Assembly: GCA_027310625.1 (NCBI GenBank)
Contig: DAIDAM010000003.1
Span: 2,239 to 66,238, forward strand
DNA from: a bacterium
GTDB lineage: Bacteria; Patescibacteriota; Minisyncoccia; UBA6257; 2-01-FULL-56-20
Direction of reading: 5' to 3'
Length of the DNA: 64,000 nucleotides
The position numbers and the translations under genes are program-made. Position 1 is the stretch's first letter. Every line of letters starts with the position of its first letter. The notes beneath the pieces were generated by a model that had not been told where the DNA came from, did no database searches, and saw only the letters and a program-made list of their open reading frames with translations. Positions 1-62,441 of this stretch are shown here, one piece after another.

Positions 1-46
1 TATTTGTAGATACTGATGGATATTAATAGATACTGACCCGCAAAAC

Positions 47-3555: not shown

Positions 3556-3676
3556 CAGTATCTGCCAGTATCCATCAGTATCTACAAGTATCAACCAACA
3601 TCCACAAACATCTCGCCGATACCGATTGATACTCATCGATACTTATTGATGTTGTCTGAATTCGAAGAGTAAAAAC

Positions 3677-4174
3677 ATGGACCAACAAACAATCGTTTAT
3701 CTTTACGAACTTTTCAAAACGATTTTCACCGCCGCCAATGTTTTCTTGCTGGTATTTTTTGTTTTCTTGGTGATAAAGTCCGTAAAATACAGACCTAATT
3801 TCAAAATTGCAGAGGAAGAAAAAAAGGAGATAGTTTACACTCTGGGAAATGTTGTCATCCGCGAACGCTGGCAGTCCATCGTCAATAGGAGCAGAATAAA
3901 TTCTCCCGAAGCGATGAAACTCGCGGTGATTGACGCCGACAACCTTGTTGACGAACTTTTGAAAAGAATGGGTCTGGAAGGGGAGCACATGGCCGACCGC
4001 CTGGAAAATCTCACAACCGAGGACTTCAGAAGCCTCGATCGCATATGGGACGCCCATCGGCTGAGAAACAGATTGGTTCACGAATCGGGATTCGTTGTTT
4101 CACGCGAGGAAGCATGGAAAGCGATTGAGGATTACGCTTCGTTCCTTAAAGAAATAAGGGTGATTGAGGAATAA
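3677..4174 (+). CDS. small hypothetical protein with N-terminal TM helix (possible C-terminal Rx4H HEPN-like motif, weak)
   Basis: 165 aa. TM 'IFTAANVFLLVFFVFLVI'. C-terminal 'RLRNRLVHE' fits an R-x4-H pattern, which is speculative. Sits between the membrane protein and ATPase 1. Confidence 0.4.
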   Translation: MDQQTIVYLYELFKTIFTAANVFLLVFFVFLVIKSVKYRPNFKIAEEEKKEIVYTLGNVVIRERWQSIVNRSRINSPEAMKLAVIDADNLVDELLKRMGLEGEHMADRLENLTTEDFRSLDRIWDAHRLRNRLVHESGFVVSREEAWKAIEDYASFLKEIRVIEE

Positions 4175-4211
4175 CTAATAACTGATGACTGATAACTGAT
4201 GACTTAAATTT

Positions 4212-5651
4212 ATGCCAAAAGCCGGCAAAATTCAGATAATAAAATACGCCCCGCCTCCGCCGGAACTGCCAGTTTACGGAAGAGTGAAAACAAGGGACGT
4301 TTCTTTCGTCGGAAGGACAAACTACGTCGCCGCTCTTGAAGAAAAAAGATTTATTTTCGGGATAAAACGCATAGACCGCAGGCGCCACCTTTACATAATA
4401 GGAAAAACCGGCGTGGGCAAATCGAAGATGCTCGAACTGCTCATGCGGCAGGACATCGCCTACGGATACGGCGCGTGCTTCATCGACCCTCACGGCGACG
4501 TTATTGATTCGCTCCTGGATTTCGTTCCGGAAGAAAGAATGGACGACGTGGTTATCATCGACCCCTCGGACGCGAAACACCCGGTATCTTTCAATCCGCT
4601 CGCAAACGTAATAGCCGATTTCAAGCACCAGTTGGCGCAGGACCTGATTGAAGTGATGCAAAAACAGTTCGGAGCGAACTGGACTCCGCGACTGGAGCAC
4701 GTTTTTCGCTTCAGCGTTCTTGCGCTTCTCGATTATCCGCACGCGACCATGCGCGGAATGATTTCGCTTTTGACGGACAGGAATTACCGACAAAAAGTTA
4801 TCGAATACATAGAAGACGACATGGTGCGGCGTTTCTGGGCTATTGAGTTCGCCGATTGGAGCGAAAAGTTCGACACCGACGCCATCATTCCGCTTGTCAA
4901 CAAACTCGGGCAATTCCTTTCCAACCCGTTGCTCCGCAACATTTTCGGTCAAAAGGAAAACAAAATTGATTTGGACCGCTTCATGAAAGAGAAAAAAATA
5001 ATTTTCATCAATCTTTCCAAGGGACGGCTGGGAGAAGAAAACTCAAGCTTTTTCGGCTCTATGTTTCTGACAAAAATAAAGCAGGCAGGGATGGCGAGGG
5101 CAAGAATGAGGCCCGAAGAACGGGAGGACTTTTATTTGTACGTGGATGAGTTTCATAATGTCGTGACGGACACTTTTGAAAACCTTCTTACCGAATCGAG
5201 AAAATACGGCCTCTGCATAACCATCGCGCATCAGTACTTCGGCCAGCTGACGTCAAGGGTGCAATCGGCGGCGCTGGGAAACTCCGGAAACATAATTGTT
5301 TTCCGCGTCGGCGGTGAGGACGCGGTGAAACTCAAGCCGGAAATGTCGCCCGTATTTGATACGAAAGATATGATAAATCTCGGCACGCAGGAATTTTACA
5401 TAAAGGAAACGATAGACGGCGAAACCTATGACCCGTTTTCCGCAGAAACGCTGAAAGTAATGCCCGCGCCGCATCCGTCTTACCGGGAACGAATCATTGA
5501 GCAGTCGCGCGCGAAGTATTCCATCACCGCCGACGCGGCGAAAAAACTTATAAAAGAGGAGGAGTCGTCAATACTCCGGCATTCCCGCGAAAAAGCGATT
5601 ATAGAGGGTTCAACAAGCGCGGCGGAAAAAGAACCGGAACCATTAATTTAG
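4212..5651 (+). CDS. FtsK/HerA/TraD(VirD4)-superfamily P-loop ATPase (DUF87-like), copy 1
   Basis: 479 aa. Walker A 'IIGKTGVGKS', Walker B 'FYLYVDEFHN', Arg-finger/ATQ-type motif 'RKYGLCITIAHQYFGQL'. Paralogous to 11901-13652, aligning from 'RRHLYIIGKTG' to 'IAHQY'. Confidence 0.8.
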   Translation: MPKAGKIQIIKYAPPPPELPVYGRVKTRDVSFVGRTNYVAALEEKRFIFGIKRIDRRRHLYIIGKTGVGKSKMLELLMRQDIAYGYGACFIDPHGDVIDSLLDFVPEERMDDVVIIDPSDAKHPVSFNPLANVIADFKHQLAQDLIEVMQKQFGANWTPRLEHVFRFSVLALLDYPHATMRGMISLLTDRNYRQKVIEYIEDDMVRRFWAIEFADWSEKFDTDAIIPLVNKLGQFLSNPLLRNIFGQKENKIDLDRFMKEKKIIFINLSKGRLGEENSSFFGSMFLTKIKQAGMARARMRPEEREDFYLYVDEFHNVVTDTFENLLTESRKYGLCITIAHQYFGQLTSRVQSAALGNSGNIIVFRVGGEDAVKLKPEMSPVFDTKDMINLGTQEFYIKETIDGETYDPFSAETLKVMPAPHPSYRERIIEQSRAKYSITADAAKKLIKEEESSILRHSREKAIIEGSTSAAEKEPEPLI

Positions 5652-5698
5652 AATCCAGTATCTAGTATTTAGAATTTGGAACACAAGCAGAGTAGAGG

Positions 5699-8249: not shown

Positions 8250-10064
8250 ATGAATTCCGAAACGAGAAATTGTCAAAACTGCAAGCAGAATTTCGTCATT
8301 GATTCCGATGATTTTGCTTTCTATGAAAAAATGAAAGTTCCGCCGCCGACGTTCTGCCCGGAATGCAGAATGATAAGGCGATTCGTCTGGCGCAACGAGC
8401 GGCATCTTTTCCGGAGAAAAGACGATGCGACCGGAATGGTTCGACCCGGTTCACCACCACAGGAAATTTTCTCGAGTTTTCCGCCGCAGGTAACTGTAAA
8501 GGTTTATAACCATGATTACTGGTGGAGCGACAACTGGGACCCGTCGGACTACGGACGCGATTACGACTTTTCCCGTCCGTTTTTTGAACAATTCAGAGAA
8601 CTGTTTTACAGCGTCCCGTTGCCCGCAAGGAGCGTTTTCGACACAACCAATTCTGAATATTGCGACAACGCTTCTTATGTAAAAAATTCGTATCTTTCTT
8701 TCAATGTCGGATACTTGGAAAACTCCGCTTACTGCGTTACAACCTTCTACAGCAAAGATAATTTAGACCTCTACGAAGCAAGACACGCCGAGCTATCTTA
8801 TGAAAATTACATGTCGGACGAGGCGTATCGCGTCTTTTTTTCCGTTAATATTGAGGATTCAACCGACATCTGGTTTTCGCGAAATCTTATGGGGTGCAAT
8901 AACTGCTTCGGATGCGTGAATCTGCGCAACAAGTCCTATTACATTTTCAACAAACCGTACTCCAAAGAGGATTACTTCGCCTACATAAAACAATTTGACC
9001 TCGGCTCTTACAAAACAAAAGAAGAATTGTTGAATCGCGCCCGCAAATTCTGGATGCAGTTTCCGATGCGCTTCACGCTCGCGATAAACGTCGTTAATTC
9101 CACAGGCGAACACATTGAGCACTCGCGGAACCTGAAAAGGTGCTATTCCATCCACAAAGGAGAAAATATGGCTTACTGTCAAATTTTTGAACCGCCGGGG
9201 GCCGATTCGTACGATTGCACGGTTTTTGGCTGGGGCGCATCGCGGAGTTATGAATCCCTTGTCTGCGGCGAAGAGTGCTATGATTTAAAGTTTTGCATTG
9301 AGTGCTGGCCGAGTTTAACCAATCTTGAATATTCCGCCCATTGTCATTCCTCCAATAATCTCTTCGGCTGTATTGGTTTGAAGAAAAAAGAATACTGCAT
9401 TTTGAACAAGCAATACTCGAAAGAAGAGTATTTCAAACTCCGCGAAAAAATAATACAACATATGAACGAAATGCCCTACATAGGCAAAATCCGAAATCAG
9501 AAATCCGAAATCCGAAACATTGAATACAAATACGGGGAATTTTTTCCGGCGGAGCTTTCTCCGTTCGCTTACAACGAAACACTTGCAAACGACTTCTTCC
9601 CGCTGACGAAAGAAGAAGCGGAGGCAAAAGGATTTCTCTGGCGCGAACAGGAACGGAGGGAATACGAAACGACGATAAACGCTTTGGATTTGCCGGACAA
9701 CATCAAAGACGTTCAGGATTCCATTCTCAAGGAAATCATAAAATGCGGCGACTGCGGACGGGCGTACAGAATAATTGAGATGGAGCTTCAGTTTTACCGC
9801 CGCATCCCGCTTCCGCTGCCGCGAAAATGTCCGGAGTGCAGATTCAAAGACAGATTCAAATTTGTAAACCCGCCGAAGTTGTGGAAAGGGAAATGTCAGT
9901 GCGCGGGAGAAACCAGTGACCAGCGACCAGAGACCAGTTACAGAAACGCTGTAAAGCATTTTCACGGAGCGGAACATTGCCCGAATGAATTTGAAACATC
10001 TTACCAACCCAACAGGCCGGAAATTGTTTACTGCGAAAGCTGTTATAACAGCGAGGTTGCTTGA
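8250..10064 (+). CDS. multi-zinc-ribbon protein A (N-terminal CxxC...CPxCR ribbon, internal Cys-containing repeats, C-terminal double ribbon)
   Basis: Start moved to 'MNSETRNCQNCKQNF' by analogy with paralog B ('MNNETKTCQNCKNQF'); the ORF-track start at 8196 lies inside the palindrome. Motifs 'KVPPPTFCPECRMIRR', 'NCFGCVNLRNKSYYIFNKPYSKEDYF', 'FGCIGLKKKEYCILNKQYSKEEYF', 'CGDCGRAYRIIEMELQFYRRIPLPLPRKCPECR'. Confidence 0.7.
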   Translation: MNSETRNCQNCKQNFVIDSDDFAFYEKMKVPPPTFCPECRMIRRFVWRNERHLFRRKDDATGMVRPGSPPQEIFSSFPPQVTVKVYNHDYWWSDNWDPSDYGRDYDFSRPFFEQFRELFYSVPLPARSVFDTTNSEYCDNASYVKNSYLSFNVGYLENSAYCVTTFYSKDNLDLYEARHAELSYENYMSDEAYRVFFSVNIEDSTDIWFSRNLMGCNNCFGCVNLRNKSYYIFNKPYSKEDYFAYIKQFDLGSYKTKEELLNRARKFWMQFPMRFTLAINVVNSTGEHIEHSRNLKRCYSIHKGENMAYCQIFEPPGADSYDCTVFGWGASRSYESLVCGEECYDLKFCIECWPSLTNLEYSAHCHSSNNLFGCIGLKKKEYCILNKQYSKEEYFKLREKIIQHMNEMPYIGKIRNQKSEIRNIEYKYGEFFPAELSPFAYNETLANDFFPLTKEEAEAKGFLWREQERREYETTINALDLPDNIKDVQDSILKEIIKCGDCGRAYRIIEMELQFYRRIPLPLPRKCPECRFKDRFKFVNPPKLWKGKCQCAGETSDQRPETSYRNAVKHFHGAEHCPNEFETSYQPNRPEIVYCESCYNSEVA

Positions 10065-10152: not shown

Positions 10153-11880
10153 ATGAACAACGAAACCAAAACCTGTCAAAATTGCAAAAACCAGTTTGCC
10201 GTCGAGCCAGATGATTTTGATTTCTACGCCAAAATCAAAGTCCCGCCGCCGACGTTCTGCCCGCCGTGCCGACTGCAGAGGCGGCTGGCGTTTTTCAATA
10301 TTTTCAATCTCTATAAACGGCCGTGCGATTTATGCAAGAAAGATTTCATTTCGATGTATCGAGCCGACACGCCGTACACTATTTACTGCCCGAAATGCTG
10401 GTGGAGCGACGATTGGGATACTTTTGAATACGGCAGAGAATACGATTTTTCGCGGCCGTTTTTCGAGCAATACAACGAACTACTGCATCGAGTTCCGCTC
10501 ATCGGCGCTTCGATAGATATTCCGACAATGGAAACATCGCCGTACACGAACCATGCCGGCCATCTCAAGAATTCTTACCTTTTGTTCCACGTCGATTATG
10601 TCGAAGATTCCGCTTACGGATTTAACACATTCAACAATAAATCATTATTTGACTGTACCAATTTAATTCTATCCGAATTATCTTATGACATAATTCACGC
10701 CTACAAGATATCGCGCTCCGCCGGCTCGCAGGATTTGCTCGAATCCATCAATTGTTTCTTTATGAAGGATTCGGAAAATTGCCAAGATTGTTTTGCGTCC
10801 GCGAATTTACGGAATAAAAAACACTACATTTTCAATGAGCCGTATTCCAAAGAGGACTATTTTGACGAAATCAAGAAATGGAATTTAGGTTCTTATAAAA
10901 TTTATCAAGAAGTTAAAAAACGGGCGGAAGAGCACTGGAAAAAATTTCCGCCAGACCCGATTTATCAAAAATTTGCCATTAATTCAACGGGGAACAGGAT
11001 ATATGAGTCGAAAAACTGCAAGGAATGTTTTGAGGTCTCTTATGCCGAGGACTGCAAATGGGCGATGATGATGTACATTCGGACAATTAAGGATTGTTAC
11101 GACGTCGTCAGTTGGGGAAATAATATGTCGCGTTCGTACGAGTGCTGCAATGTCGGCGAGGATGTTTCCGAAGCGCGGTTCTGCAGCGAATCCGGACTGG
11201 GATTGATGGACGCAGAATATTGCAAACTCTCGACGGGCAACCATCATTTCGGCTGCGTATCCGTAAAGAAAGGCGATTACGTAATTCTAAACAAAAAATA
11301 TTCAGAGGATGAGTACCGGAAATTGCGCGAAAAAATTATCGCGCAAATGAACGAGTTGCCCTACGTTTCAAGGGCGACCAGCAACCGGGGACCAGAGACA
11401 AGGGAGATAATTTACAAATACGGGGAATTTTTCCCGGCGGAAATCAGCCCCTTTGCCTACAACGAAACGATTGCAAATAATTTCTTTCCCTTGGAAAAAG
11501 AAAAGGTCTTGGCGAACAGCTGGCGATGGAACGAACCGGAAACGCACGCCTACTCAATTACAAAACACGCCCAAGATTTGCCCGACCACATAAAAGACGC
11601 CGGTGACGATATTTTGAAAGAGGTAATCGCCTGCGCGAAATGCGGACGGGGATTCAGAATCATACGAATGGAACTCGATTTTCTGCGGCGGATGAATTTG
11701 CCTTTGCCGCGCGAGTGTCCGTTTTGCCGCATCGGCGAGAAATTCAATTACTGGGTCAAAGAATCGCGGCTGGTGAAACGAACCTGCGACAAATGCGGCG
11801 CGGAATTCGACAGCCCGCACACGAAAGAGAACTATCCGAAAATTCTTTGCAAAAAACACTGGCTGGAAGAAGTGGTGTAA
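10153..11880 (+). CDS. multi-zinc-ribbon protein B (tandem paralog of A)
   Basis: 575 aa, collinear with A: 'KVPPPTFCPPCRLQRR', 'YDFSRPFFEQYNEL', 'ANLRNKKHYIFNEPYSKEDYF', 'FGCVSVKKGDYVILNKKYSEDEYRKLREKIIAQMNELPYV', 'CAKCGRGFRIIRMELDFLRRMNLPLPRECPFCR'. It carries an extra CxxC...CPKCWW ribbon where A has lost the cysteines. Confidence 0.7.
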   Translation: MNNETKTCQNCKNQFAVEPDDFDFYAKIKVPPPTFCPPCRLQRRLAFFNIFNLYKRPCDLCKKDFISMYRADTPYTIYCPKCWWSDDWDTFEYGREYDFSRPFFEQYNELLHRVPLIGASIDIPTMETSPYTNHAGHLKNSYLLFHVDYVEDSAYGFNTFNNKSLFDCTNLILSELSYDIIHAYKISRSAGSQDLLESINCFFMKDSENCQDCFASANLRNKKHYIFNEPYSKEDYFDEIKKWNLGSYKIYQEVKKRAEEHWKKFPPDPIYQKFAINSTGNRIYESKNCKECFEVSYAEDCKWAMMMYIRTIKDCYDVVSWGNNMSRSYECCNVGEDVSEARFCSESGLGLMDAEYCKLSTGNHHFGCVSVKKGDYVILNKKYSEDEYRKLREKIIAQMNELPYVSRATSNRGPETREIIYKYGEFFPAEISPFAYNETIANNFFPLEKEKVLANSWRWNEPETHAYSITKHAQDLPDHIKDAGDDILKEVIACAKCGRGFRIIRMELDFLRRMNLPLPRECPFCRIGEKFNYWVKESRLVKRTCDKCGAEFDSPHTKENYPKILCKKHWLEEVV

Positions 11881-13652: not shown

Positions 13653-13717
13653 AAGTTATCAGACAACAGTAATCAGACATCAGAAGTAATTTTTAATTCT
13701 CTGATTTCTGATGACTA

Positions 13718-18292: not shown

Positions 18293-18375
18293 AATCTGAA
18301 GCATGAAGCCCGAAATCCCAAACAACAAGTGAATTTTGTTTAAAATTTAAAATTTGAGATTTCGGATTTAGCAAC

Positions 18376-19476: not shown

Positions 19477-19529
19477 AAAATTGAATAATGAATTACGAAT
19501 TATGAATAAAGCGGAGATAAACTAAAACC

Positions 19530-20672: not shown

Positions 20673-20837
20673 AACGCGATACAAATATACAAATGCATGC
20701 GAATGATACGAATAATGCTGATTCGTATTCATTTGTATCATTAGAACAATTCGTAATATTTCGTATATTGGCATCATAGTTTACTGGATTACCGTTGGAA
20801 AATATGTCAAAATTCGCCCCATGTCCCGTAGGAAACT

Positions 20838-20959: not shown

Positions 20960-22501
20960 ATGACAGCCACTCAAAAAAGAGGGGTACGTGTTCGTTTTGC
21001 TCCGTCGCCGACGGGGTTTCTGCACGTCGGCTCCGTAAGAACCGCACTCTTCAACTGGATTTTTGCAAAACAGAATAGCGGAAAATTTATTCTCAGAATC
21101 GAAGATACTGATAAGGAACGCTCAAAACCGGAATATGAAAAAAACATTCTTGAAAGTTTGAAATGGCTGGGTCTTGACTGGGATGAAGGACCCTCGCCCA
21201 ATGGCGCGCAGAATAACGCAGACGATACGCAGAATAACGCAGAAAAAAGTCAGCGTGAGTCAGCGTCAAGTCGGCGCAAGTCAGCGTATATTGGAGATTA
21301 TGGTCCTTATCGTCAGTCGGAAAGGATAAAAATTTACAGAAATTACATTGAACGTTTGATTGGCGAAGGAAGGGCTTATCGCTGCTTTTGCTCCAAAGAA
21401 CAGCTTGAATCAGACCGGCAAACGATGCTTGCCGAAGGTTTGCCTCCGAAATACGGCGGGCGATGCAGAAACATAAAAAAAGAAGACGGCGAAAAGAGAA
21501 TGAAAAACGGCGAAGCGTGCGTCATACGTTTCGTCGTTCCCGAAACGGATGTAGAATTCAACGATTTGGTCAGAGGGAATGTGAAATTCAGCGGCGAACT
21601 GATGGGGGACATGATAATCGCCAAAAGCGAGGATGAGCCGCTTTATAACTTCGCCGCAACGATAGACGACGAACTGATGGAAATAACCCACGTCATAAGG
21701 GCGGAAGAACACCTTTCAAACACGCCGAAACAAATATTTCTTCAGCAGGCGCTGAATTTCAGAGAGATTAAATACGCCCACATCCCTCTCATACTCAATC
21801 CCGACAGAAGCAAAATGTCCAAACGCTATCTTGAATCGTCGGTAAACGATTACCGCTCGGGAGGTTATCTGCCGGAAGCAATGCTGAATTTTCTTTCGCT
21901 TCTCGGATGGCATCCGAAAGAAGAAAAAGAAATTCTCGGCATTGACGAAATAATAAAAGAATTTGACATCAAGCGCGTGCAAAAAGCCGGAGCCGTTTTC
22001 AATATTGAAAAGCTGAACTGGATAAATTCCCAATACATAAAGAAGAAAACGAATACAGAGTTGGCGGCGCTTTTGAGAATTTTTCTTGAAAATAAAAATA
22101 TTGACGCGGAAGATGAATTTGTCGCAAAGGTCGCCGGCGCCGAGAAAGAGCGCGTAAAGACCATTGCCGAATTAGCCGAAGCCGCCGAGTTTTTTTTCAA
22201 ACTTCCCGATTACGGTCCGGAGCTTTTGACATGGAAAAATAGAACAGCCGCCGAGACGAAAAATGCAATAAATGAATCGCTTAAGATGTTGGATGAGATA
22301 CCGGAAGAAAAATTCGCGAGGGAAGAAATCGGGAACGCGCTGCAGCAATTGATAGAAAAAACGGGCAGGGGAGAGGTTCTGTGGCCAATCAGAGCCGCAC
22401 TTTCAGGGCAAAAAGCTTCGCCGGACCCCCTTGAAATAATGGGGATTTTAGGCAAAAAGGAAACGGAAAGGCGATTAAAAATCGCGATGAAAAAATTATA
22501 A
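20960..22501 (+). CDS. gltX: glutamyl-tRNA synthetase (non-discriminating likely), with ~28-aa low-complexity insertion
   Basis: 'RFAPSPTGFLHVGSVRTALFNW' (HIGH region) and 'KMSKR'. An insertion 'NGAQNNADDTQNNAEKSQRESASSRRKSAY' lies between the conserved 'WDEGP' and 'GDYGPYRQSER'. Confidence 0.9.
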   Translation: MTATQKRGVRVRFAPSPTGFLHVGSVRTALFNWIFAKQNSGKFILRIEDTDKERSKPEYEKNILESLKWLGLDWDEGPSPNGAQNNADDTQNNAEKSQRESASSRRKSAYIGDYGPYRQSERIKIYRNYIERLIGEGRAYRCFCSKEQLESDRQTMLAEGLPPKYGGRCRNIKKEDGEKRMKNGEACVIRFVVPETDVEFNDLVRGNVKFSGELMGDMIIAKSEDEPLYNFAATIDDELMEITHVIRAEEHLSNTPKQIFLQQALNFREIKYAHIPLILNPDRSKMSKRYLESSVNDYRSGGYLPEAMLNFLSLLGWHPKEEKEILGIDEIIKEFDIKRVQKAGAVFNIEKLNWINSQYIKKKTNTELAALLRIFLENKNIDAEDEFVAKVAGAEKERVKTIAELAEAAEFFFKLPDYGPELLTWKNRTAAETKNAINESLKMLDEIPEEKFAREEIGNALQQLIEKTGRGEVLWPIRAALSGQKASPDPLEIMGILGKKETERRLKIAMKKL

Positions 22502-25586: not shown

Positions 25587-26603
25587 ATGGCGAAGAAACA
25601 AAAAGAAAACCAATATCCCCTAGCAGATGTGCCATTCCTCTCAATAAGCCCGAAATCCGTTCATTTTATCGGCGTTCTGGGCATCGGCATAAGCTCCCTT
25701 GCCCAGTGGTTTATGGCCCGCCCTGAGCGCGGTCGAAGGGCTCAAAAATGGGCTGTTTCGGGGTCGGATACGGCAATTGGTCCTACCTATCAAATGCTCA
25801 AAAAAGCCGGTTTAAAAGCAAAAATTGGGCATAAAAGAGGCAATATTCCAGCAAAATGCGGTCTTGTTATATATAGCCGGGCGATAAAAAAGAATAACCC
25901 CGAACTTAAAGAAGCAAAAAGAATGGACATACCCGCGCTCTCCTATCCGCAGGCCGTCGGGAAGCTGACAAAGTTCTACAAAACGATTTGCATTTCCGGC
26001 ATGCACGGAAAGAGCACTACAACGGCGCTGACTGCGTTTCTTTTAATTAATGCGGGGTTGGATCCGACGGTAATCATCGGCACGCGCCTGAAGGAATTCG
26101 GATACAGAAATTTCCGCAATGGAAAAAACGAATTTCTTGTTTTAGAGGCGGACGAATACAAAGACGCTTTTTTGAACTACTCCCCTGCTTTTGCGATAGT
26201 CACCAATATAGACAAAGAACATCTGGACTATTTCAAAAACATAAACGAAATAAAAAATTCTTTTCTGAATTTTTTCCGCCGCGTAAAAAAAGGCGGAATA
26301 ATTATATTAAACCGCGACGATGCAATGCTTTATTCCCTCAAACGAAAAATAGATAAATTAAGCAAAATCAGAAACATAAAAACAAAATGGTATTCACTGC
26401 GAGACAAAGAAGCGGCGGAAGTAAAAAAGTATATAAAGTTGCCGGGAATGCATAATGTATCAAATGCTCTAGCGGTATATTGTTTGTCAAAGTTTCTCGG
26501 AATAAGCGGAAAAACCTTCTTAAAAACCATCTCCGAATACGCCGGTTCGTGGAGAAGAATGGAATACCGCGGCAAGTATCAAGTATCAAGTATCAGTTTA
26601 TGA
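25587..26603 (+). CDS. murC: UDP-N-acetylmuramate--L-alanine ligase, N-terminal and central domains (reading frame broken at 3' end)
   Basis: 'HFIGVLGIGISSLAQWF', 'CISGMHGKSTTTAL', 'LVLEADEY'. The ORF terminates inside the tandem heptamer AAGTATC x3 at 26582-26602. Confidence 0.8.
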   Translation: MAKKQKENQYPLADVPFLSISPKSVHFIGVLGIGISSLAQWFMARPERGRRAQKWAVSGSDTAIGPTYQMLKKAGLKAKIGHKRGNIPAKCGLVIYSRAIKKNNPELKEAKRMDIPALSYPQAVGKLTKFYKTICISGMHGKSTTTALTAFLLINAGLDPTVIIGTRLKEFGYRNFRNGKNEFLVLEADEYKDAFLNYSPAFAIVTNIDKEHLDYFKNINEIKNSFLNFFRRVKKGGIIILNRDDAMLYSLKRKIDKLSKIRNIKTKWYSLRDKEAAEVKKYIKLPGMHNVSNALAVYCLSKFLGISGKTFLKTISEYAGSWRRMEYRGKYQVSSISL

Positions 26604-27093
26604 CGATTACGCTCATCATCCGACGGAGATAAAAGCGACGCTTGCCGCGTTCAGGGAAAAGTTTCCTAAAAGCGAGATTGTCTGCGTTTTCCAGCCGCAT
26701 CAGGCGGAGCGGCTCAAGCTTTTATTCAAAGAATTTCGTAACGCCTTTGACGGCGCTGATAAAACAATAATTATGCCGATTTACAAAGTCGCCGGCCGCG
26801 AATCGTCGGTTAACTCCGAATATGACGCCGCGGCGCTCGTAAAATCAATCCAAAAAATGAAACCGCCGCGGAAAGTTTTTTATCTGAAAGACCCGAAAAA
26901 CTTGAAAAAGGCGCTAAAAATTCTCTTGTCCGATTACTCGCTCCCCTGCCCCCTTCCGCGTAAGTCGGCGTTAAGTCAGCGTGAGTCTGCGTCAGGTCCG
27001 CGTCAGTCCGCGGTCGTGATAATGATGGGCGCCGGCGACATTGTAAATTACACGGATTCACTCATTAAAAAAGACAGGGCCAGCAAGCGCTAG
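26596..27093 (+). pseudogene. murC: murC C-terminal domain in shifted frame (frameshift at AAGTATC x3; alternatively a sequencing or population variant)
   Basis: The frame gives 'VYDDYAHHPTEIKATLAAF...VCVFQPHQ...IMMGAGDI', the canonical MurC C-terminal motifs. Deleting one 7-bp unit restores a single ORF ('...RGKYQVSVYDDYAHHPTEI'). Confidence 0.7.
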
Positions 27094-27345: not shown

Positions 27346-27516
27346 TAGAACCACCTCCTTTCACGCCCGAGTTAATACAAAAAATATCACAGGAAATATT
27401 TTCTTGCAACACGATTGTAAATTACCTGACTTTGCTGATAAAATGACACAGCAGTAATCAGCAATTAGACATCAGTAATCAGTTGTCGGCAGTCGGTTCC
27501 TAATGTCTAATGACTA

Positions 27517-28326
27517 ATGTCAATTGTCTATCTTACTTATATGTCCGAATACTATTCAACGCCCGAAAGTTTCAAGGAAGCCAACGGATATATTATTGAG
27601 GGCATTTGGTATCCGCGAGTAACAAAAATCGTTTCCATCAAGGCGAAGCCCGCTCTTTACCGCTTTTACGCCGAGCAGGAAAGCTTTGAAGCGAGCAGAA
27701 AAATAACGGAGCAATCGGCGGCCGAGGGAACGCTCGTCCACGAAGCGGCGGAGGCGATTCTCCTCGGACAAGCTCCGGAAATTGACGAGTCAATAAAGCC
27801 GGCCATAAAGGCGTTCCAAAAATTTCTGGAAGAGAAAAATATTCAGACCTCTCCGGAATACGTCGAGCGGCAAATTTTTCATCCCGGACACAGATACGCC
27901 GGAACAATAGACGTAATGGCGCTGATTGACGGAAAATTCGGCGTCCTCGACATAAAAACTTCACAGGGAATTTATCGCGATTACAATTTGCAAACGGCGG
28001 CGTATATGGGCGCGCTCAAAGACCAGTTTCAGCATTTGCAGACAAGATGGATTTTGAGAATTGATCAGATTCAAACCTGTCTCCGATGCGGCGCCACAAG
28101 GAGAACAAAAGGCGGACGCGAAAAGATAAGTTTGTGGAACAAAAACGGCGCGATGAACAAAGAAAAGATGAAAAAATGCGAACACGAGTGGTCAGAGGTT
28201 CGGGGAGAAATAGAATTCAAAGAATTCCCCTACTGGGAAAGCGATTTCGAAGCGTTCTTGGGGGCGAAAAAATTGTGGGAATGGGAAAATGAGAATTGGT
28301 TGCGGAAAATAGGATATTTAACTTAA
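27517..28326 (+). CDS. PD-(D/E)xK nuclease superfamily protein (Cas4/RecB-nuclease-like fold) with C-terminal Cys cluster
   Basis: 'GTIDVMALIDGKFGVLDIKTSQ' gives D...D-x-K after 'LVHEAAE'. C-terminal 'CLRCG...CEHEW'. Not adjacent to any cas genes. Confidence 0.55.
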   Translation: MSIVYLTYMSEYYSTPESFKEANGYIIEGIWYPRVTKIVSIKAKPALYRFYAEQESFEASRKITEQSAAEGTLVHEAAEAILLGQAPEIDESIKPAIKAFQKFLEEKNIQTSPEYVERQIFHPGHRYAGTIDVMALIDGKFGVLDIKTSQGIYRDYNLQTAAYMGALKDQFQHLQTRWILRIDQIQTCLRCGATRRTKGGREKISLWNKNGAMNKEKMKKCEHEWSEVRGEIEFKEFPYWESDFEAFLGAKKLWEWENENWLRKIGYLT

Positions 28327-29767: not shown

Positions 29768-30241
29768 TTACGAATGGAAAAGTTTTTTACACTCGTCTCG
29801 CATAAAGTCTTTGACGATTTCAATTTTTCCCGGCGATTTCTTTACAATTTCCTTTGAAGATATTTTTATCGTGCGCCAACTATATCTCTGATTGCCGTGA
29901 TTTTTGCCATGGTCGTTCATGTCAGAAACCCTGCTGCCATAAACGATACCATTCAATTTCGCCCATACCGCGGCAGAAGAGCACATCGGGCAAGGTTCGT
30001 GAGTAGTATACAACACACAATCACTCATATGCCTCCGTTTAAGAACTTTACTAGCTTGCAGAATCGCCAATGTTTCTGCGTGGCCGATTGGATTTTCATC
30101 CCTAATGCTGCGATTGCTCGCCGATGAAATTATCCTGTTTCCTCTCGCCATCACGGCGCCGATTGCGTAATCGCCCATCCGCTTCGCGGCTTTAGCCTCG
30201 CGAATCGCTCTTTCCATAAACTTTTTCTGCGGTTTCAGCAT
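29768..30241 (-). CDS. CMP/dCMP-type zinc deaminase (TadA/guanine deaminase-like)
   Basis: 'HAE' and 'PCPMC' zinc-binding motifs in 'PIGHAETLAILQAS...HEPCPMCSSA'. Confidence 0.75.
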   Translation of the reverse strand: MLKPQKKFMERAIREAKAAKRMGDYAIGAVMARGNRIISSASNRSIRDENPIGHAETLAILQASKVLKRRHMSDCVLYTTHEPCPMCSSAAVWAKLNGIVYGSRVSDMNDHGKNHGNQRYSWRTIKISSKEIVKKSPGKIEIVKDFMRDECKKLFHS

Positions 30242-30274
30242 AGTTATCAGTTATTAGTTATTGGTTATTGGTCA

Positions 30275-30994
30275 TCAAAATTTTAAGTACTTCTCCCATT
30301 TTTCATAAAGTTCTTTCGTCGCGTTTAAATCGCCGGCGTTATAGCGCGCTATTTCGGCGTATTTTTTTTCTTTGAAAAGTTTTCCGACATCGTCGCCGGT
30401 TATGCCGCCTGCCTTCGGGCTTGTTATGCCGAAAGCCCTCGTCCAAAGGTGGAGATTGCCTTTTCTCCGCACCGCGCCGTAAAAAGAAAGCTGGTCCAAA
30501 AGGTCAACATGGACGGCGTCGAAATTCTGCTGCGAAAAATATCTTCCGCGCATCAAATCTTTTGCGGGCCTGATGCTGTGCACCGCGGAACGGACCATCA
30601 AAAAAGGAATATCGAACGCCCTGCCGTTGAAAGTTATGAAGTAATTGTAATTCTTCGCGATATCCCAGAAATTCCGGAGCATCTCCTTTTCGGAACATTT
30701 TTTAAACGAAAAATTGTTTTCTCTGAAATCGCCGGCGTCGCTCTCCGGCGCCTGAAAATAAACCGCTCCTTCGTTTTTTTCACATTCAAGAACTCCTATC
30801 GCAACAACTTCCGCCGTAAGCGGCGAAAAGCCGAGACGATTTTTCAACTCGCTCAACGCTTCATCATAATCGGCATTGCTCTCCGATTCTTTCCTTATCC
30901 AGCGCGTGAGATTTTCCCTTGTCGCCTCATCAAGAGAATCAAAATCTTCCCCAACTGTTTCTATGTCCAAAACGAGTTTCTTAAAGGTTGACAT
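30275..30994 (-). CDS. RNase H-like 3'-5' exonuclease (PolB-exonuclease-like, YprB/RNase_H_2 family)
   Basis: 'LVLDIETVGEDF' (Exo I, DxE), 'FITFNGRAFDIPFL' (Exo II), 'YNAGDLNATKELY' (Exo III, YxxxD). Confidence 0.7.
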   Translation of the reverse strand: MSTFKKLVLDIETVGEDFDSLDEATRENLTRWIRKESESNADYDEALSELKNRLGFSPLTAEVVAIGVLECEKNEGAVYFQAPESDAGDFRENNFSFKKCSEKEMLRNFWDIAKNYNYFITFNGRAFDIPFLMVRSAVHSIRPAKDLMRGRYFSQQNFDAVHVDLLDQLSFYGAVRRKGNLHLWTRAFGITSPKAGGITGDDVGKLFKEKKYAEIARYNAGDLNATKELYEKWEKYLKF

Positions 30995-31120
30995 TCGTCT
31001 GAATTATATACTATAATCTTTTTTCATAAGTATCCATTAGTATCAACAAATATCGATGAGTATCATCTTTGATATTCGTAGATACTCGCTTCGCGATATT
31101 GATGGAAATTATCTCAAACT

Positions 31121-31854: not shown

Positions 31855-31957
31855 AATTTTGTTTGAAAATCCTAAATTCTAAATCTGAAATCCGAAACAA
31901 ATTCTAAACACTAAATTCCAAATTGCAAACGTTTGGGATTTGGAATTTGTGATTTGT

Positions 31958-34516: not shown

Positions 34517-34565
34517 TGTTTTATACTTCTGATTACTGATGTCTAGTTACTGATTACTGATCATC

Positions 34566-35514: not shown

Positions 35515-35524
35515 TTCTTGATTC

Positions 35525-39441: not shown

Positions 39442-39480
39442 TTTTTCTAATTTCCAGATTCTAGTTTCCAGATTCTATTT

Positions 39481-41924: not shown

Positions 41925-41959
<35 letters not shown>

Positions 41960-56437: not shown

Positions 56438-56484
56438 TTTGAAAAGTTGTCAGTTGCTAGTTGTCAGTTACTGGTTACTAGTTA

Positions 56485-62342: not shown

Positions 62343-62441
62343 TATTAGCAACCAGAATTTTGAGACCAGAAACCGGAGTTATTTTTACTCAACAGTCGCT
62401 TTGTCTCTGGTCGCTGGTCTCTGGTCGCTGGTCGCTGGTCG

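What the first reader, a model, noticed from the sequence alone, without database searches (positions are those of the whole stretch)
3556..3660. Three recurring families of short tandem 'stutter' repeats filling intergenic spacers
Almost every intergenic gap contains degenerate tandem words from one of three families.
- (i) GATACT/AGTATC: 1-45, 3556-3660, 5651-5685, 31021-31090, plus in-CDS copies at 26578 and 36003.
- (ii) CAGTAATCAG / CTGATTACTGAT: 4176-4205, 13655-13720, 27440-27535, 30240-30275, 34522-34562, 56440-56500.
- (iii) GACCAGAGACCAG / CTGGTCGCTGGTC: 62340-62440 intergenic, 53480-53560 encoding a pilin leader, 9895-9935 and 11375-11400 in the Zn-ribbon proteins.
There are also GAAATCCGAAAT arrays at 18290-18380, 31870-31990 and in-CDS at 9489-9520. 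Such consistent repeat families are unusual. They could be replication-slippage hotspots, protein-binding arrays such as nucleoid or terminator signals, or remnants of a repeat-generating mechanism.
Basis: seen in the sequence. Interest (0 to 1): 0.5.

Follow-up and report, generated by a model that had tools for sequence, protein, structure and literature searches.

The report
Heptamer repeat hairpins between CPR genes
The "stutter" repeats are real 7-base (some 10-base) tandem arrays of a kind already known from cyanobacteria, Beggiatoa and Xanthomonas, found here in a candidate-phyla-radiation (CPR) bacterium, usually paired with their mirror copy so that a spacer folds into a long hairpin; the same paired arrays bracket a small gene family otherwise known from intervening sequences in 23S rRNA, which may be a clue to where such repeats come from.

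Summary
The window holds 71 tandem-repeat rows against 14±4.5 in shuffles, and period 7/14/21 accounts for 37 against 2.2. Every listed coordinate checks out. "Almost every gap" is too strong: about half of the spacers (17-19 of 38) carry an array.

The host is a Patescibacteria (Paceibacteria-type) MAG. The arrays are heptanucleotide simple-sequence repeats of the STRR / TAACTGA / Xanthomonas GGGAATC kind.

Typical anatomy is one array directly after a stop codon and its reverse complement shortly before the next start codon. The spacer then forms one segmented hairpin. The focal 3556-3657 element is one of these.

The arrays are young. Orthologous spacers in the closest relatives are 9-18 nt, or they carry different words. 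Arrays also sit in frame inside gltX, fmt, murC and a prepilin leader. One extra 7-nt unit frameshifts murC.

The most likely origin is replication slippage plus template switching, with arrays kept wherever they are tolerated. Any RNA-level effects are secondary.

One unexpected result: PF05635 "23S rRNA intervening-sequence protein" genes are bracketed by inverted arrays. This holds in both window copies, in ten CPR loci, in cyanobacteria, in Riemerella, and in a true 23S IVS in Azospirillum.

The parts
1..45 (+). Decamer array (TAGATACTGA x2.8) just upstream of the secF start at 47.
3556..3657 (+). Focal element. The left arm holds six CAGTATCnnn units (3556-3615). The right arm holds four GATACTnnnn/GATGTTGTCT units (3618-3657). 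Together they form a segmented hairpin that starts inside the stop codon TGA 3553-3555 and ends 20 nt before ATG 3677.
   Evidence: RNA fold -24.6 kcal/mol, z -2.5. The orthologous spacer is 9-18 nt in L001, L003 and L056.
4171..4206 (+). Direct heptamer array TAACTGA TGACTGA TAACTGA TGAC, in forward orientation. It ends 5-11 nt before ATG 4212 and there is no SD motif.
   Evidence: An identical sequence is present in the independent Logan contig.
5650..5681 (.). AGTATCT/AGTATTT/AGAATTT array in a convergent spacer.
   Evidence: L001 and L003 carry different-word array hairpins at this spacer and L056 has none.
9484..9520 (+). In-CDS (GAAATCC)n array that encodes KIRNQKSEIRN before the conserved YKYGEFFP motif in a Zn-ribbon/TrwB-like protein.
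9908..9941 (+). In-CDS (GACCAGN)n array that encodes ETSDQRPETS.
11375..11405 (+). In-CDS GACCAG-type array in the paralogue. It sits at the linker homologous to 9484-9520 and encodes ATSNRGPETR.
13654..13717 (+). Stop-to-start hairpin. The ATCAGAC/AACAGTA arm pairs with the TCTGATT/TCTGATG arm, and the element ends 3 nt before the trmD ATG.
   Evidence: z -3.2. The spacer is much shorter in L001 and L056 and carries no such array.
18293..18375 (+). Stop-to-start hairpin with a CGAAATCCCAAA arm and a TTTGAGATTTCGGATTT arm, upstream of ftsW.
   Evidence: (z -3.3)
19480..19509 (+). Direct heptamer array ATTGAAT AATGAAT TACGAAT TATGAAT upstream of murG.
20679..20770 (+). ATACAAAT / ACGAAT array hairpin downstream of murG.
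   Evidence: z -2.4
21207..21288 (+). In-frame hairpin made of decamers, (CGCAGAATAA)x3.7 followed by (AAGTCAGCGT)x4.1. It forms most of a 30-residue insertion (query residues 82-111) in GluRS, between DEGPSPN and GDYGPYRQSER.
   Evidence: z -4.5. In one search, PDB chain 2o5r aligns across the gap as 86|87.
26573..26595 (+). (CAAGTAT)x3.3 array in a variable loop of murC. The reading frame shifts exactly here. Removing one 7-nt unit restores GKYQVSVYDDYAHHP.
26955..27012 (+). In-frame AAGTCAGCGT-type decamer array in the murC C-terminal part. It encodes the same SQRESAS peptide as the gltX insert.
27440..27530 (.). CAGTAAT and CTAATGT arrays in a divergent spacer. They abut ATG 27517.
   Evidence: no significant fold, z -0.7
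30240..30277 (-). Direct array that reads TAACCAA TAACCAA TAACTAA TAACTGA TAACT on the sense strand, followed immediately by the ATG of the deaminase gene.
31021..31090 (.). AGTATC/GATACT decamer hairpin in the divergent spacer upstream of rpmA.
   Evidence: z -2.8 and -3.0
31867..31956 (-). Stop-to-start hairpin with an AAATCCC/AAATTCC arm and TTTGGAA/TTTAGAA/CGGATTT arms, between ctpA and rplI.
   Evidence: (z -2.7)
34108..34135 (+). Upstream arm (ACATCAG TCATCAG ACACAAG ACACCAG) that brackets the PF05635 gene at 34142-34516.
34529..34563 (+). Downstream arm (CTGATTA CTGATGT CTAGTTA CTGATTA CTGATCA) of the same cassette. It also serves as the leader of def, whose ATG is at 34566.
   Evidence: flank-to-flank duplex -33.5 kcal/mol
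35104..35118 (+). Upstream arm (ATCAAGA x2) that brackets the PF05635 gene at 35128-35514. It lies inside the 3' end of def.
35510..35544 (+). Downstream arm (TGATTCT TGATTCA TGATTCT TAATTCT) of that cassette. It overlaps the fmt start.
   Evidence: duplex -52.5 kcal/mol. The Wolfebacteria locus L139 has the same def|IVP|fmt layout.
35693..35804 (+). Inverted pair of arrays inside fmt: GAAGCAA/AAGAATC at 35693-35724 and TTCTTGA at 35760-35804. They encode variable segments of the formyltransferase N-domain.
35996..36029 (+). In-CDS (AGTATCA)x4 array in fmt that encodes IVSSIRYQVS.
39442..39482 (-). 14-mer/heptamer array that reads AATCTGG AAACTAG AATCTGG AAATTAG on the sense strand, just before ATG 39441.
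53493..53562 (-). (GGTCTCT)n array on the sense strand, translated as part of a 37-residue prepilin leader. A related GACCAGT AACCAGT array lies at 53606-53645.
56445..56494 (-). Direct array that reads TAACTAG TAACCAG TAACTGA CAACTAG CAACTGA on the sense strand, upstream of the T2SSE ATPase gene.
62340..62448 (-). Strongest hairpin in the window. (CGACCAG)x6 follows directly after the ftsH stop and pairs with CTGGTCTC/CTGGTTGC upstream of tRNA-Ile.
   Evidence: -42.6 kcal/mol, z -6.0

Best explanation
The repeats are heptanucleotide (and a few decanucleotide) simple-sequence arrays. They belong to the same class as cyanobacterial STRR, Beggiatoaceae TAACTGA repeats and Xanthomonas GGGAATC repeats. 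Here they occur in a Patescibacteria (Paceibacteria-type) genome.

Shown:
- Arrays are concentrated in spacers.
- Most are paired with their reverse complement. A whole spacer, a small cassette gene, or a stretch inside a coding region then becomes a long, A+T-rich, segmented hairpin.
- The hairpin usually begins at the stop codon and ends a few bases before the next start codon.
- Arrays are evolutionarily young and lineage-specific.
- They also occur, free of stop codons, inside variable loops of essential proteins.

Inferred mechanism: arrays grow and shrink by replication slippage in 7-nt steps. The mirror arm is made or kept in step by intrastrand template switching, or by copying from other arrays of the same word family. 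The products persist wherever they do little harm, namely short spacers, protein loops and leader peptides.

They behave as near-neutral or selfish DNA rather than as required signals. In the transcript they must still form RNase III-type stems. Where they are unpaired they give stop-rich, structure-free, SD-less leaders, so side effects on mRNA processing and translation are likely but secondary.
For: Period and excess:
- Period 7 is uniquely enriched in the window.
- In 1.62 Mb of related CPR loci there are 110 strict period-7 arrays, against at most 20 for any other period except 14.
- 70 of 124 arrays lie in the 13% of sequence that is non-coding.

Youth and independent origin:
- Synteny is kept in L001, L003 and L056.
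- The 121-nt focal spacer is 18, 11 and 9 nt there.
- The 37-nt TAACTGA spacer is about 6-10 nt in L001 and L056.
- L002, L001 and L003 carry hairpins built from different words at the same spacers.

Slippage in action:
- murC is frameshifted by exactly one extra CAAGTAT unit.

Hairpin anatomy:
- Folding z-scores run from -2.4 to -6.0.
- In 31 co-directional array-bearing spacers from many CPR genomes, most spacers longer than about 85 nt fold as one stem from stop codon to just before ATG. Variant units are mirrored in the other arm.

DNA-level origin rather than sense-RNA selection:
- Sense and antisense minimum free energies do not differ (p=0.46).
- G-U pairs make up 7% of pairs on both strands.

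Tolerated-site distribution:
- The gltX insertion is in frame and 30 residues long.
- Arrays also lie in fmt, in murC, in the Zn-ribbon proteins and in a prepilin leader.
- Arrays occur in co-directional, convergent and divergent spacers.

Precedent:
- Heptamers are the dominant long SSR in bacteria, with slippage proposed as the cause (Mrazek 2007 as summarised in PMC4679880).
- In Xanthomonas, 70 of 186 GGGAATC sites are convergent pairs (PMC4692102).
Against: - Pure slippage from local seeds does not explain why the same few words recur at many loci in one genome: 30 pairs within one mismatch against 11.8 expected.
- It does not explain why 7 nt is the favoured unit.
- It does not explain why the arrays travel with PF05635 genes across phyla.
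- The strict placement from stop codon to start codon could reflect selection for a function such as processing or coupling.
- A streamlined genome keeping about 100-nt inserts in half of its spacers hints at some benefit or at an active spreading mechanism.
- No population or read-level data were available, so copy-number instability rests on one frameshift that could be an assembly error (searches found no second assembly).
Confidence: 0.55

Rival explanations
1. IVS-like mobile hairpin elements. The inverted arrays are the stems of a family of selfish elements. The full-length form carries a PF05635 four-helix-bundle gene in the loop, which is the architecture of 23S rRNA intervening sequences. 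The ORF-less 100-150-nt array hairpins in spacers and in protein loops are then miniature derivatives, or landing sites, of that family. The PF05635 protein would be the trans-acting partner that binds or propagates the heptamer arrays. RNase III cleavage of the stem would insulate host transcripts from the insert.
For: In CPR:
- All 10 PF05635 genes examined are bracketed by an array and its reverse complement.
- 5 of 6 testable PF05635 genes meet the criterion 'both flanks periodic and flank-to-flank duplex at or below -30 kcal/mol', against 6 of 1426 other genes.

Outside CPR (13 of 14 sampled plasmid hits have tandem arrays on both sides; Gemmatirosa L162 was unclear):
- Nine pairs are inverted: Calothrix, N. 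punctiforme, Geminocystis, Nostoc C052, Anabaena 90, Nostoc 53789, Leptolyngbya, Picosynechococcus (period about 8-16 rather than 7) and Riemerella.
- Pseudanabaena and Oscillatoria carry direct arrays on both sides, and Nostoc 7120 carries non-complementary ones.
- In 50 kb of Riemerella DNA, the only real period-7 arrays are the two that flank the gene.
- A true 23S rRNA IVS in Azospirillum has heptamer-array stems (Rfam LSU match).

Co-distribution:
- A tblastn search of 72,556 plasmids finds the family almost only in heptamer-rich taxa: Nostoc 21, Calothrix 4, Riemerella 4.
- The nearest PDB relative is XCC0516 from Xanthomonas campestris, another heptamer-rich genome.

Word matching:
- Words flanking the genes in L077/L096 and L001 match family iii and the GAAATCC family.
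Against: - No transposase, target-site duplication or conserved terminal sequence was found, and words differ between elements.
- The association could arise because PF05635 genes prefer to land in existing hairpins.
- ORF-less hairpins carry no detectable remnant of the gene.
- No binding or mobility data exist.
- No whole-genome correlation was computed.
- Cyanobacterial genomes are so rich in arrays that flanking there is weak evidence on its own.
Confidence: 0.3
2. Host-selected intercistronic RNA elements. The hairpins are functional mRNA signals, such as RNase III processing sites, 3'-end stabilisers, U-tract-independent terminators or devices for translational coupling. The tandem structure is then only how they evolved.
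For: - Stems begin at or within 1-3 nt of the stop codon and end 3-20 nt before the start codon in many independent genomes.
- Stems of 20-30 bp are long enough for RNase III (established knowledge).
- Folding z-scores run from -2.4 to -6.
- In Nostoc, deleting heptamer repeats changes reporter expression 1.5-2.9 fold (bioRxiv 10.1101/2022.06.06.494920).
Against: - Closest relatives manage with 9-18-nt spacers at the same gene junctions, so the elements are dispensable.
- The same hairpins sit inside coding regions (gltX, fmt), where such signals would be harmful.
- Arrays also lie in divergent spacers.
- There is no sense-strand bias in stability or in G-U pairs.
- Classical G+C-rich terminators with U tracts exist elsewhere in the window.
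Confidence: 0.2
3. SD-independent translation leaders, or binding arrays for a post-transcriptional regulator, as proposed for TAACTGA repeats in Beggiatoaceae. In this reading the forward-oriented, structure-free, stop-rich heptamers just upstream of start codons recruit ribosomes or an RNA-binding protein.
For: - Direct-only arrays at 4171-4206, 30240-30277, 34529-34563, 39442-39482 and 56445-56494 all read NAACTGA/NAACTAG-like on the sense strand and end 0-11 nt before the start codon.
- 4 of the 6 exact TAACTGA copies in the window lie in such arrays.
- SD motifs are not enriched upstream of genes: 7 of 62 against a 13% background.
- This matches the BOGUAY pattern (PMC4679880).
Against: - There are only five such arrays, so the orientation test is weak (about 1 in 16).
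- It is biased, because stop-free orientations would be absorbed into ORFs.
- Exact TAACTGA is not enriched overall (6 against 4.4 expected).
- Most arrays use other words, are paired into hairpins that would occlude the leader, or lie after stop codons, in convergent spacers or in CDS.
- Orthologous genes in relatives lack the arrays.
Confidence: 0.12
4. Chance or assembly artefact.
For: MAG assemblies can mis-assemble repeats. The Logan contig L058 ends 2 nt after the gene's stop, at the start of the 5650-5681 array.
Against: - The excess over shuffles is large.
- One array has an identical sequence in an independent assembly.
- The same architecture appears in dozens of independent CPR assemblies and in finished cyanobacterial and Riemerella records.
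Confidence: 0.01

Closest known systems
Heptanucleotide long simple sequence repeats (LSSR) of prokaryotes (Mrazek, Guo and Shah 2007, as summarised in PMC4679880) and cyanobacterial STRR repeats (Calothrix/Nostoc; Mazel et al. 1990, from my own knowledge and as cited in PMC4692102)
   Same: Tandem 7-nt units that are degenerate, mostly intergenic, patchy across lineages and genome-specific in their words. Slippage is the proposed origin.
   Different: - Here the host is a small-genome CPR bacterium.
- Arrays are short, at 3-10 units.
- They are usually paired with a mirror array.
- They are wedged between stop and start codons of tightly packed operons.
TAACTGA direct repeats of marine Beggiatoaceae, some Cyanobacteria and Bacteroidetes (MacGregor 2015, PMC4679880)
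   Same: - Identical or one-mismatch words occur here (TAACTGA, TGACTGA, TTACTGA, CAACTGA, TAACTAG).
- They are in forward orientation and end within a few nt of start codons that lack an SD motif.
- In-ORF copies use the stop-free orientation.
   Different: - Exact TAACTGA is not enriched in the window (6 against 4.4 expected).
- Only one 'split' set of exact units is present.
- Several other word families are equally common.
- Inverted pairing dominates here but was seen only once in BOGUAY.
GGGAATC heptamer repeats of Xanthomonas (Rehm et al. 2015, PMC4692102)
   Same: Intergenic heptamer arrays lying close to the upstream ORF's 3' end. Many occur as convergent (inverted) pairs that can form a stem-loop or cruciform. 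They vary between related species.
   Different: The Xanthomonas words are G-rich and can form G-quadruplexes. Here the words are A+T-rich, there are multiple families, and arrays also occur in frame within genes.
23S rRNA intervening sequences (IVS) with or without a PF05635/TIGR02436 ORF (J Bacteriol 2024, PMC11270868; older literature from my own knowledge)
   Same: - A long stem is formed by the two ends of an insert.
- The loop optionally carries the four-helix-bundle ORF.
- ORF-less forms are about 100-150 nt.
- The Azospirillum IVS stem is itself a heptamer array.
   Different: The inserts here are in mRNA spacers and protein-coding loops, not in rRNA helices. RNase III cleavage was not tested.
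Rickettsia palindromic elements (RPE; Ogata et al. 2000, from my own knowledge) and REP/BIME elements
   Same: Short palindromic selfish DNA found in spacers. For RPE, it is also inserted in frame into essential protein genes at surface loops, as with the 30-residue gltX insert here.
   Different: RPE and REP have conserved family consensus sequences and no internal tandem periodicity. REPs are mobilised by RAYT transposases, and none was seen here.
Borg tandem repeats (PMC9879509)
   Same: Recently formed tandem repeats that arise independently in intergenic regions and in ORFs, where they add low-complexity peptide segments.
   Different: Borg repeats are perfect and have variable unit lengths, with multiples of 3 inside genes. 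They are not period-7 and are not arranged as inverted pairs.

Membership tests
Heptanucleotide LSSR / STRR-type tandem repeats | Head-to-tail repeats with a 7-nt unit, in excess over the composition-based expectation. | tested here: met
   37 period-7/14/21 TRF rows against 2.2±1.6. 15 strict period-7 segments against 0-2 for other periods.
Heptanucleotide LSSR / STRR-type tandem repeats | Predominantly intergenic location. | tested here: met
   8 of 15 strict arrays lie in the 9.5% of the window that is non-coding. 70 of 124 arrays lie in the 13% that is non-coding across CPR loci.
Heptanucleotide LSSR / STRR-type tandem repeats | Copy-number variability between strains or species. | tested here: inconclusive
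   Arrays are present, absent or differently worded between species, and there is a +7 frameshift in murC. No strain-level or read-level data could be obtained.
TAACTGA direct repeats (MacGregor 2015) | At least two direct copies of the exact unit TAACTGA, or a 'split' set. | tested here: met
   TAACTGA-TGACTGA-TAACTGA lies at 4179-4199. Single exact units sit within related arrays at 30247 and 56464.
TAACTGA direct repeats (MacGregor 2015) | TAACTGA is favoured over related heptamers, genome-wide. | tested here: not met
   6 copies against 4.4±2.2 expected. Other word families are at least as frequent. Only 64 kb was examined.
TAACTGA direct repeats (MacGregor 2015) | Forward orientation within a few nt upstream of a start codon that lacks an SD motif. 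| tested here: met
   5 of 5 direct-only arrays meet this. An SD core is present upstream of 7 of 62 genes, against a 13% background.
Xanthomonas-type inverted heptamer pairs | Two arrays of the same word in convergent orientation close together. | tested here: met
   Seen at 3556-3657, 13654-13717, 18293-18375, 31867-31956, 62340-62448 and 35693-35804, and in most of the longer (over about 85 nt) spacers among the 31 CPR spacers folded.
Xanthomonas-type inverted heptamer pairs | G-rich unit able to form a G-quadruplex. | tested here: not met
   Units are A+T-rich and have no G3 tracts.
23S rRNA intervening sequence (IVS) | Insert lies within an rRNA helix. | tested here: not met
   The window has no rRNA gene. 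The inserts lie in mRNA spacers and in CDS.
23S rRNA intervening sequence (IVS) | The ends of the insert pair into a long stem, and the loop optionally carries a PF05635 ORF. | tested here: met
   The PF05635 genes at 34142-34516 and 35128-35514 have flank-to-flank duplexes of -33.5 and -52.5 kcal/mol.
23S rRNA intervening sequence (IVS) | Excision by RNase III without re-ligation. | not testable with these tools
   This needs transcript-end mapping or in vitro cleavage.
Intrinsic (rho-independent) terminators | G+C-rich stem of 5-12 bp followed by a U tract. | tested here: not met
   The consensus terminator scan placed only one minor, antisense-strand match in an array (3553-3567). The stems are A+T-rich, segmented and lack U tails. 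Classical terminators exist elsewhere, for example in 47586-47931.
REP/BIME or MITE | A conserved family consensus, or terminal inverted repeats with a target-site duplication. | tested here: not met
   Only 6-7-nt words are shared between copies. No TSD appears when filled and empty orthologous spacers are compared.
Known RNA families (Rfam 15) | Match at the gathering score. | tested here: not met
   Only two tRNAs matched in the whole window.

The most novel reading that the evidence does not exclude
Heptamer tandem repeats have been an unexplained feature of cyanobacterial, Xanthomonas, Beggiatoa, Bacteroidetes and now CPR genomes since 1990. They may be the stems, and the ORF-less relics or landing pads, of one widespread class of selfish 'intervening-sequence' elements. 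The full form of such an element would carry a PF05635/TIGR02436 four-helix-bundle (Avd-like) gene between inverted arrays. The PF05635 protein would be the long-sought partner that recognises or propagates the arrays. The same element type would account for 23S rRNA IVSs, for intercistronic array hairpins and for in-frame hairpin inserts in housekeeping proteins.
Probability: 0.3. Interest if true: 0.8.

Novelty: new member of a known kind. Interest (0 to 1): 0.55.

Why it matters
The repeats themselves are an ordinary though under-studied class. Their presence in a CPR genome shows three things. The 7-nt slippage phenomenon reaches very small, streamlined genomes. It can fill about half of their spacers. 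It can also reshape essential proteins, as with the 30-residue insert in GluRS, the repeat-encoded segments of Fmt and MurC, and a frameshift in murC. This matters for MAG annotation, because such arrays can cause false pseudogenes, mis-called start codons and contig breaks.

The link to PF05635 genes is the part worth following. PF05635 is a very large protein family of unknown function, with more than 7,900 close hits in the database. The link offers a concrete, testable candidate for what heptamer repeats are associated with, and it ties them to rRNA intervening sequences. I found no paper that makes this link. The literature search was limited, so the link may be known elsewhere.

Tried and rejected
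- Strain or assembly variants were sought to measure copy-number change. Exact-protein look-ups for 27517-28326, for the PF05635 protein, for both murC ORFs and for gltX found nothing. The one hit (L058) was identical to the window.
- The metagenome scan with MurC returned only relatives at 42-50% identity. These were useful as a CPR sample but not as strain variants.
- A test for sense-strand RNA selection, comparing minimum free energies and G-U pair counts on sense and antisense strands, was negative.
- A test for stop codons in all frames on the sense strand was weak: 18 arrays had more stop-containing frames on the sense strand, 11 had more on the antisense strand and 20 were equal. I dropped the 'all-frame stop array' idea as a general explanation. 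GACCAG, GAAATCC and GATACT units carry no stop codons.
- Classical terminator and promoter readings were rejected.
- Rfam gave no family match.
- A telomere-like reading of TTTGGGA was dismissed, because the unit is not a permutation of known telomere units.
- A DGR context for the Avd-like genes was rejected. Their neighbours are def and fmt, the small upstream ORF 33864-34145 was not scanned, and the matches to the Avd equivalog score far below its cut-off.
- Mrazek 2007 and Mazel 1990 are not in the searchable library, so I cite them second-hand or from memory.
Full report
**1. The observation**

The focal stretch 3556-3660 reads CAGTATCTGC CAGTATCCAT CAGTATCTAC AAGTATCAAC CAACATCCAC AAACATCTCG CC GATACCGATT GATACTCATC GATACTTATT GATGTTGT. 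It is six decamer units with an AGTATC core, followed by four units of the reverse complement.

Tandem Repeats Finder lists 71 rows in the window. Thirty dinucleotide-preserving shuffles give 14.0±4.5. Rows of period 7, 14 or 21 number 37 against 2.2±1.6, and rows of period 10 or 20 number 11 against 2.9±1.9.

A strict autocorrelation scan finds 15 period-7 segments and 9 period-14 segments. Every other period from 4 to 15 gives 0-2, and shuffled sequence gives none.

This includes the long prepilin leader encoded by the (GGTCTCT)n array at 53493-53562.

The word families are real. Array units share words far more often than letter-shuffled units do. Identical canonical units occur in 7 pairs against 0.9 expected. 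Pairs within one mismatch number 30 against 11.8±3.2, reached by 0 of 500 nulls. AGTATC occurs 41 times against 12.6 expected.

The claim that "almost every" gap is filled is too strong. 17 of 38 spacers of at least 25 nt carry a TRF array, or 19 with two further cases. The arrays are concentrated in the first 36 kb.

An independent Logan assembly of SRR5161795 reproduces the 4171-4206 array exactly.

**2. Organism and context**

The genes are housekeeping genes of a Patescibacteria (Paceibacteria/Parcubacteria-type) bacterium. They include secF, a sigma factor, TrwB-like ATPases, pepA, trmD, ftsW, murG, gltX, murC, rpmA, rplI, ctpA, def, fmt, ftsH and type IV pilus genes.

The nearest genomes are MAGs labelled Patescibacteria group, Liptonbacteria and Paceibacterota. 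They show 85-87% protein identity in one gene.

Shine-Dalgarno cores are not enriched upstream of genes: 7 of 62 against a 13% background.

**3. Anatomy**

Most arrays come with a mirror copy. The examples are 3556-3657, 13654-13717, 18293-18375, 20679-20770, 31021-31090, 31867-31956 and 62340-62448. Each folds into a segmented hairpin in which 4-9-bp helices (the words) are separated by small symmetric loops (the variable linker bases). Z-scores against shuffles run from -2.4 to -6.0.

Direct-only arrays do not fold. These are 4171-4206, 30240-30277, 34529-34563, 39442-39482 and 56445-56494. All five read NAACTGA/NAACTAG-like on the sense strand and end 0-11 nt before a start codon.

In the hairpin spacers, the arm next to the stop codon is the ATCAG-type orientation. 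The arm next to the start codon is the CTGAT-type orientation.

**4. The phenomenon in relatives**

I examined 1.62 Mb from 137 CPR loci fetched with two proteins.
- There are 110 strict period-7 arrays. No other period except 14 exceeds 20.
- 61 loci have at least one array.
- 70 of 124 arrays lie in the 13% of sequence outside long ORFs.

In 31 co-directional array-bearing spacers, most of those longer than about 85 nt (typically about 105-150 nt) form a single long hairpin. It begins at or within 1-3 nt of the stop codon and ends 3-14 nt before the ATG. Variant units in one arm are mirrored in the other arm.

The sense and antisense strands fold equally well (p=0.46), and both carry 7% G-U pairs. 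I therefore see no sign of selection acting specifically on the sense RNA.

**5. Age**

Synteny around the focal element is conserved in L001, L003 and L056.
- The 121-nt focal spacer is 18, 11 and 9 nt in those genomes.
- The 37-nt TAACTGA spacer is about 6-10 nt in L001 and L056.
- At the same junctions, L002, L001 and L003 carry array-plus-mirror hairpins made of quite different words (ATGCGAA/TTCGCAT, ATGAAC/GTTCAT and others).

The elements are therefore recent, dispensable and independently acquired. Their architecture is nevertheless constant.

**6. Arrays inside genes**

- gltX carries an in-frame insertion of 30 residues between DEGPSPN and GDYGPYRQSER, mostly encoded by the 82-nt hairpin at 21207-21288. 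The hairpin is built from (CGCAGAATAA)n followed by (AAGTCAGCGT)n, with fold z -4.5. The T. maritima GluRS structure aligns across the insertion without a gap in its own sequence.
- The same AAGTCAGCGT word, read in the same frame as SQRESAS, recurs in the C-terminal part of murC at 26955-27012.
- fmt contains an inverted pair of arrays (35693-35724 and 35760-35804) and an (AGTATCA)4 array. All of them encode variable segments without changing the protein's length.
- Two paralogous Zn-ribbon proteins carry different word families at the homologous linker before YKYGEFFP.
- In murC the frame changes exactly at (CAAGTAT)3.3. Conserved WRRMEYRG is in one frame and VYDDYAHHPTEI is in the next. Deleting one 7-nt unit restores a loop of normal length. 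Whether this is a real allele or an assembly error could not be settled.

**7. What is known**

- Heptanucleotide repeats are the commonest long SSR in many bacteria, with polymerase slippage proposed as the cause (Mrazek 2007, as summarised in PMC4679880).
- TAACTGA repeats in Beggiatoaceae, Cyanobacteria and Bacteroidetes lie in forward orientation just upstream of SD-less start codons. In-ORF copies use the stop-free orientation.
- Xanthomonas has 186 GGGAATC sites, of which 70 occur as convergent pairs able to form stem-loops.
- In Nostoc, deleting heptamer repeats changes reporter activity 1.5-2.9 fold, and an unidentified binding partner has been postulated.
- Searches for such repeats in CPR bacteria returned nothing.

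The finding is therefore a new member of a known kind, found in a new phylum. It comes with an unusually regular stop-to-start hairpin form.

**8. The unexpected association**

The window has two PF05635/TIGR02436 genes, annotated as "23S rRNA intervening sequence protein" and four-helix bundle, Avd-like. One is inserted upstream of def and the other between def and fmt. Each is bracketed by an array just upstream of its ATG and by the reverse complement just after its stop:
- 34108-34135 and 34529-34563
- 35104-35118 and 35510-35544

The same holds for every other CPR copy examined: L001, L031, L077, L096, L137, L139, L142 and L146. L139 is a Wolfebacteria locus with the same def|IVP|fmt layout.

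By an objective criterion, 5 of 6 testable PF05635 genes qualify, against 6 of 1426 other genes. The criterion is that both flanks are periodic and the flank-to-flank duplex is at or below -30 kcal/mol.

A tblastn search of 72,556 plasmids finds the family almost only in Nostoc, Calothrix and other cyanobacteria, and in Riemerella. Thirteen of the 14 sampled hits carry tandem arrays on both sides; boundaries in the Gemmatirosa hit (L162) were unclear. Nine of the non-rRNA pairs are inverted (Picosynechococcus with period about 8-16), Pseudanabaena and Oscillatoria carry direct arrays, and Nostoc 7120 carries non-complementary ones.

In 50 kb of Riemerella DNA, the only genuine period-7 arrays are the two that flank the gene.

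One sampled hit lies inside a bacterial LSU rRNA gene in Azospirillum (Rfam). It is therefore a true IVS. Its stem is CAGAGGA CGGATGA CAGAGGA CGGAGGA paired with TCCGTCC TCTGTCT TCTGTCA TCCGTCT.

The nearest solved structure is XCC0516 of Xanthomonas campestris, itself a heptamer-rich genome.

I found no paper that reports this link.

**9. Interpretation**

I commit to the following as most likely, with probability about 0.55. The arrays are slippage-generated heptamer SSRs. Their mirror arms arise by template switching or by copying. They are near-neutral or selfish and persist where tolerated. Any effects on transcripts are secondary.

The steps that are shown:
- the period-7 excess;
- the hairpin form;
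- the youth of the arrays;
- their dispensability;
- their tolerated-site distribution;
- one +7 event in murC.

The steps that are inferred are the slippage and template-switch mechanism and the lack of a required function.

This account leaves three things unexplained: word recurrence within a genome, the preference for 7 nt, and the PF05635 link. Those three motivate the IVS-like mobile-element rival (about 0.3). That rival overlaps with the main account rather than excluding it.

Host-selected RNA signals (about 0.2) and SD-less translation leaders (about 0.12) remain possible for subsets of the arrays. Chance or artefact is excluded for the class as a whole.

**10. Verdict**

The repeat class is already known, and this is a new host phylum and a new variant form. 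Interest is moderate, and is raised by the PF05635/IVS association, which deserves a genome-wide test.

Noticed in passing
window 25587-27093 (array at 26573-26595): murC is split into two ORFs by a frameshift that lies exactly at a (CAAGTAT)x3.3 array. Removing one 7-nt unit restores GKYQVSVYDDYAHHP. This is either a live slippage allele or pseudogene in an essential gene, or an assembly error.
   Followed up: partly
window 21203-21292: GluRS carries a 30-residue in-frame insertion between DEGPSPN and GDYGPYRQSER. The DNA of the insertion is a decamer-array hairpin (z -4.5). The same AAGTCAGCGT word, read in the same frame as SQRESAS, recurs in murC at 26955-27012.
   Followed up: yes
window 34108-34563 and 35104-35544; loci L001, L031, L077, L096, L137, L139, L142, L146, L150-L163: PF05635/TIGR02436 '23S rRNA intervening sequence protein' genes are bracketed by inverted heptamer arrays. 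This holds in CPR, cyanobacteria and Riemerella, and in a true 23S rRNA IVS in Azospirillum lipoferum plasmid AZO_p2. In 50 kb of Riemerella DNA, these two flanking arrays are the only real period-7 arrays.
   Followed up: partly
L139 97-1590, L154, L157, L158: The four-helix-bundle genes sit inside operons: def|IVP|fmt in two distant CPR lineages, cas6|IVP|cas4 in L154, IVP upstream of cas4 in L157, and cas10|IVP|cmr3 in L158. This is what one would expect of a self-insulating selfish cassette.
   Followed up: no
L060 2192-2236, L072 1717-1751, L081 10227-10266, L091 2076-2105, L092 1325-1362, L112 1235-1276, L128 42-75, L134 10232-10259: Many CPR murC genes carry a heptamer array (AAAGCTA / AAACTAC / AAGCTTC) at the same position in the protein. 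It encodes the conserved-length segment ELLKAKSYKLKAISYPEALG. This looks like either an old array kept inside a gene or periodic homogenisation without a change in length.
   Followed up: partly
window 7820-7833, 8177-8190, 10082-10095: The perfect palindrome CATTCGCGCGAATG, within CC(C/A)TCATTCGCGCGAATGGT(A/G)GAAT, occurs three times. Each copy lies just upstream of a gene in the Zn-ribbon/TrwB-like cluster. It is probably an operator for a dimeric regulator.
   Followed up: no
window 1011-1030, 50421-50504, 51084-51153: A second dispersed repeat family consists of hairpins built from CCCCCACACCAAACGGCAA(C/T) ... GTTGCCGTTTGGTGTGGGGG. They lie in spacers and resemble REP elements.
   Followed up: no
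window 20830-20957, 41214-41272, 44609-44675, 45990-46264: Long-range inverted repeats of the form CCCGTTAGAAAT ... ATTTCTAACGGG have a 3' arm that abuts a start codon (20960, 41275-, 45989-). A similar pair lies in L003 upstream of the TrwB-like gene. This may be a 5'-leader structure.
   Followed up: no
window 51533-51548, 52069-52084, 54106-54121: A GCATAAGCAAGTTATG-centred motif flanked by CCCCC/GGGGG runs is repeated at gene junctions in the pilus gene cluster, overlapping the 3' ends of ORFs.
   Followed up: no
window 41927-41956: A perfect (CT)15 dinucleotide run lies in a 306-nt spacer.
   Followed up: no
L058 (window 3979-5653): The independent Logan contig ends 2 nt after the gene's stop, at the start of the 5650-5681 array, so such arrays may break short-read assemblies.
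   Followed up: no
window, all gene starts: There is no enrichment of Shine-Dalgarno cores upstream of genes: 7 of 62 against a 13% background. By my own knowledge (not tested here), Bacteroidetes and many cyanobacteria are also SD-poor, and both host heptamer repeats.
   Followed up: partly
window 52121-53626 (-): The LVIVD-repeat protein has a type IV prepilin-like N-terminus (G|QSTLEILIAF) preceded by an unusually long 37-residue leader. That leader is encoded by the (GGTCTCT)n array. The likely start codon is ATG 53596 rather than GTG 53626.
   Followed up: partly
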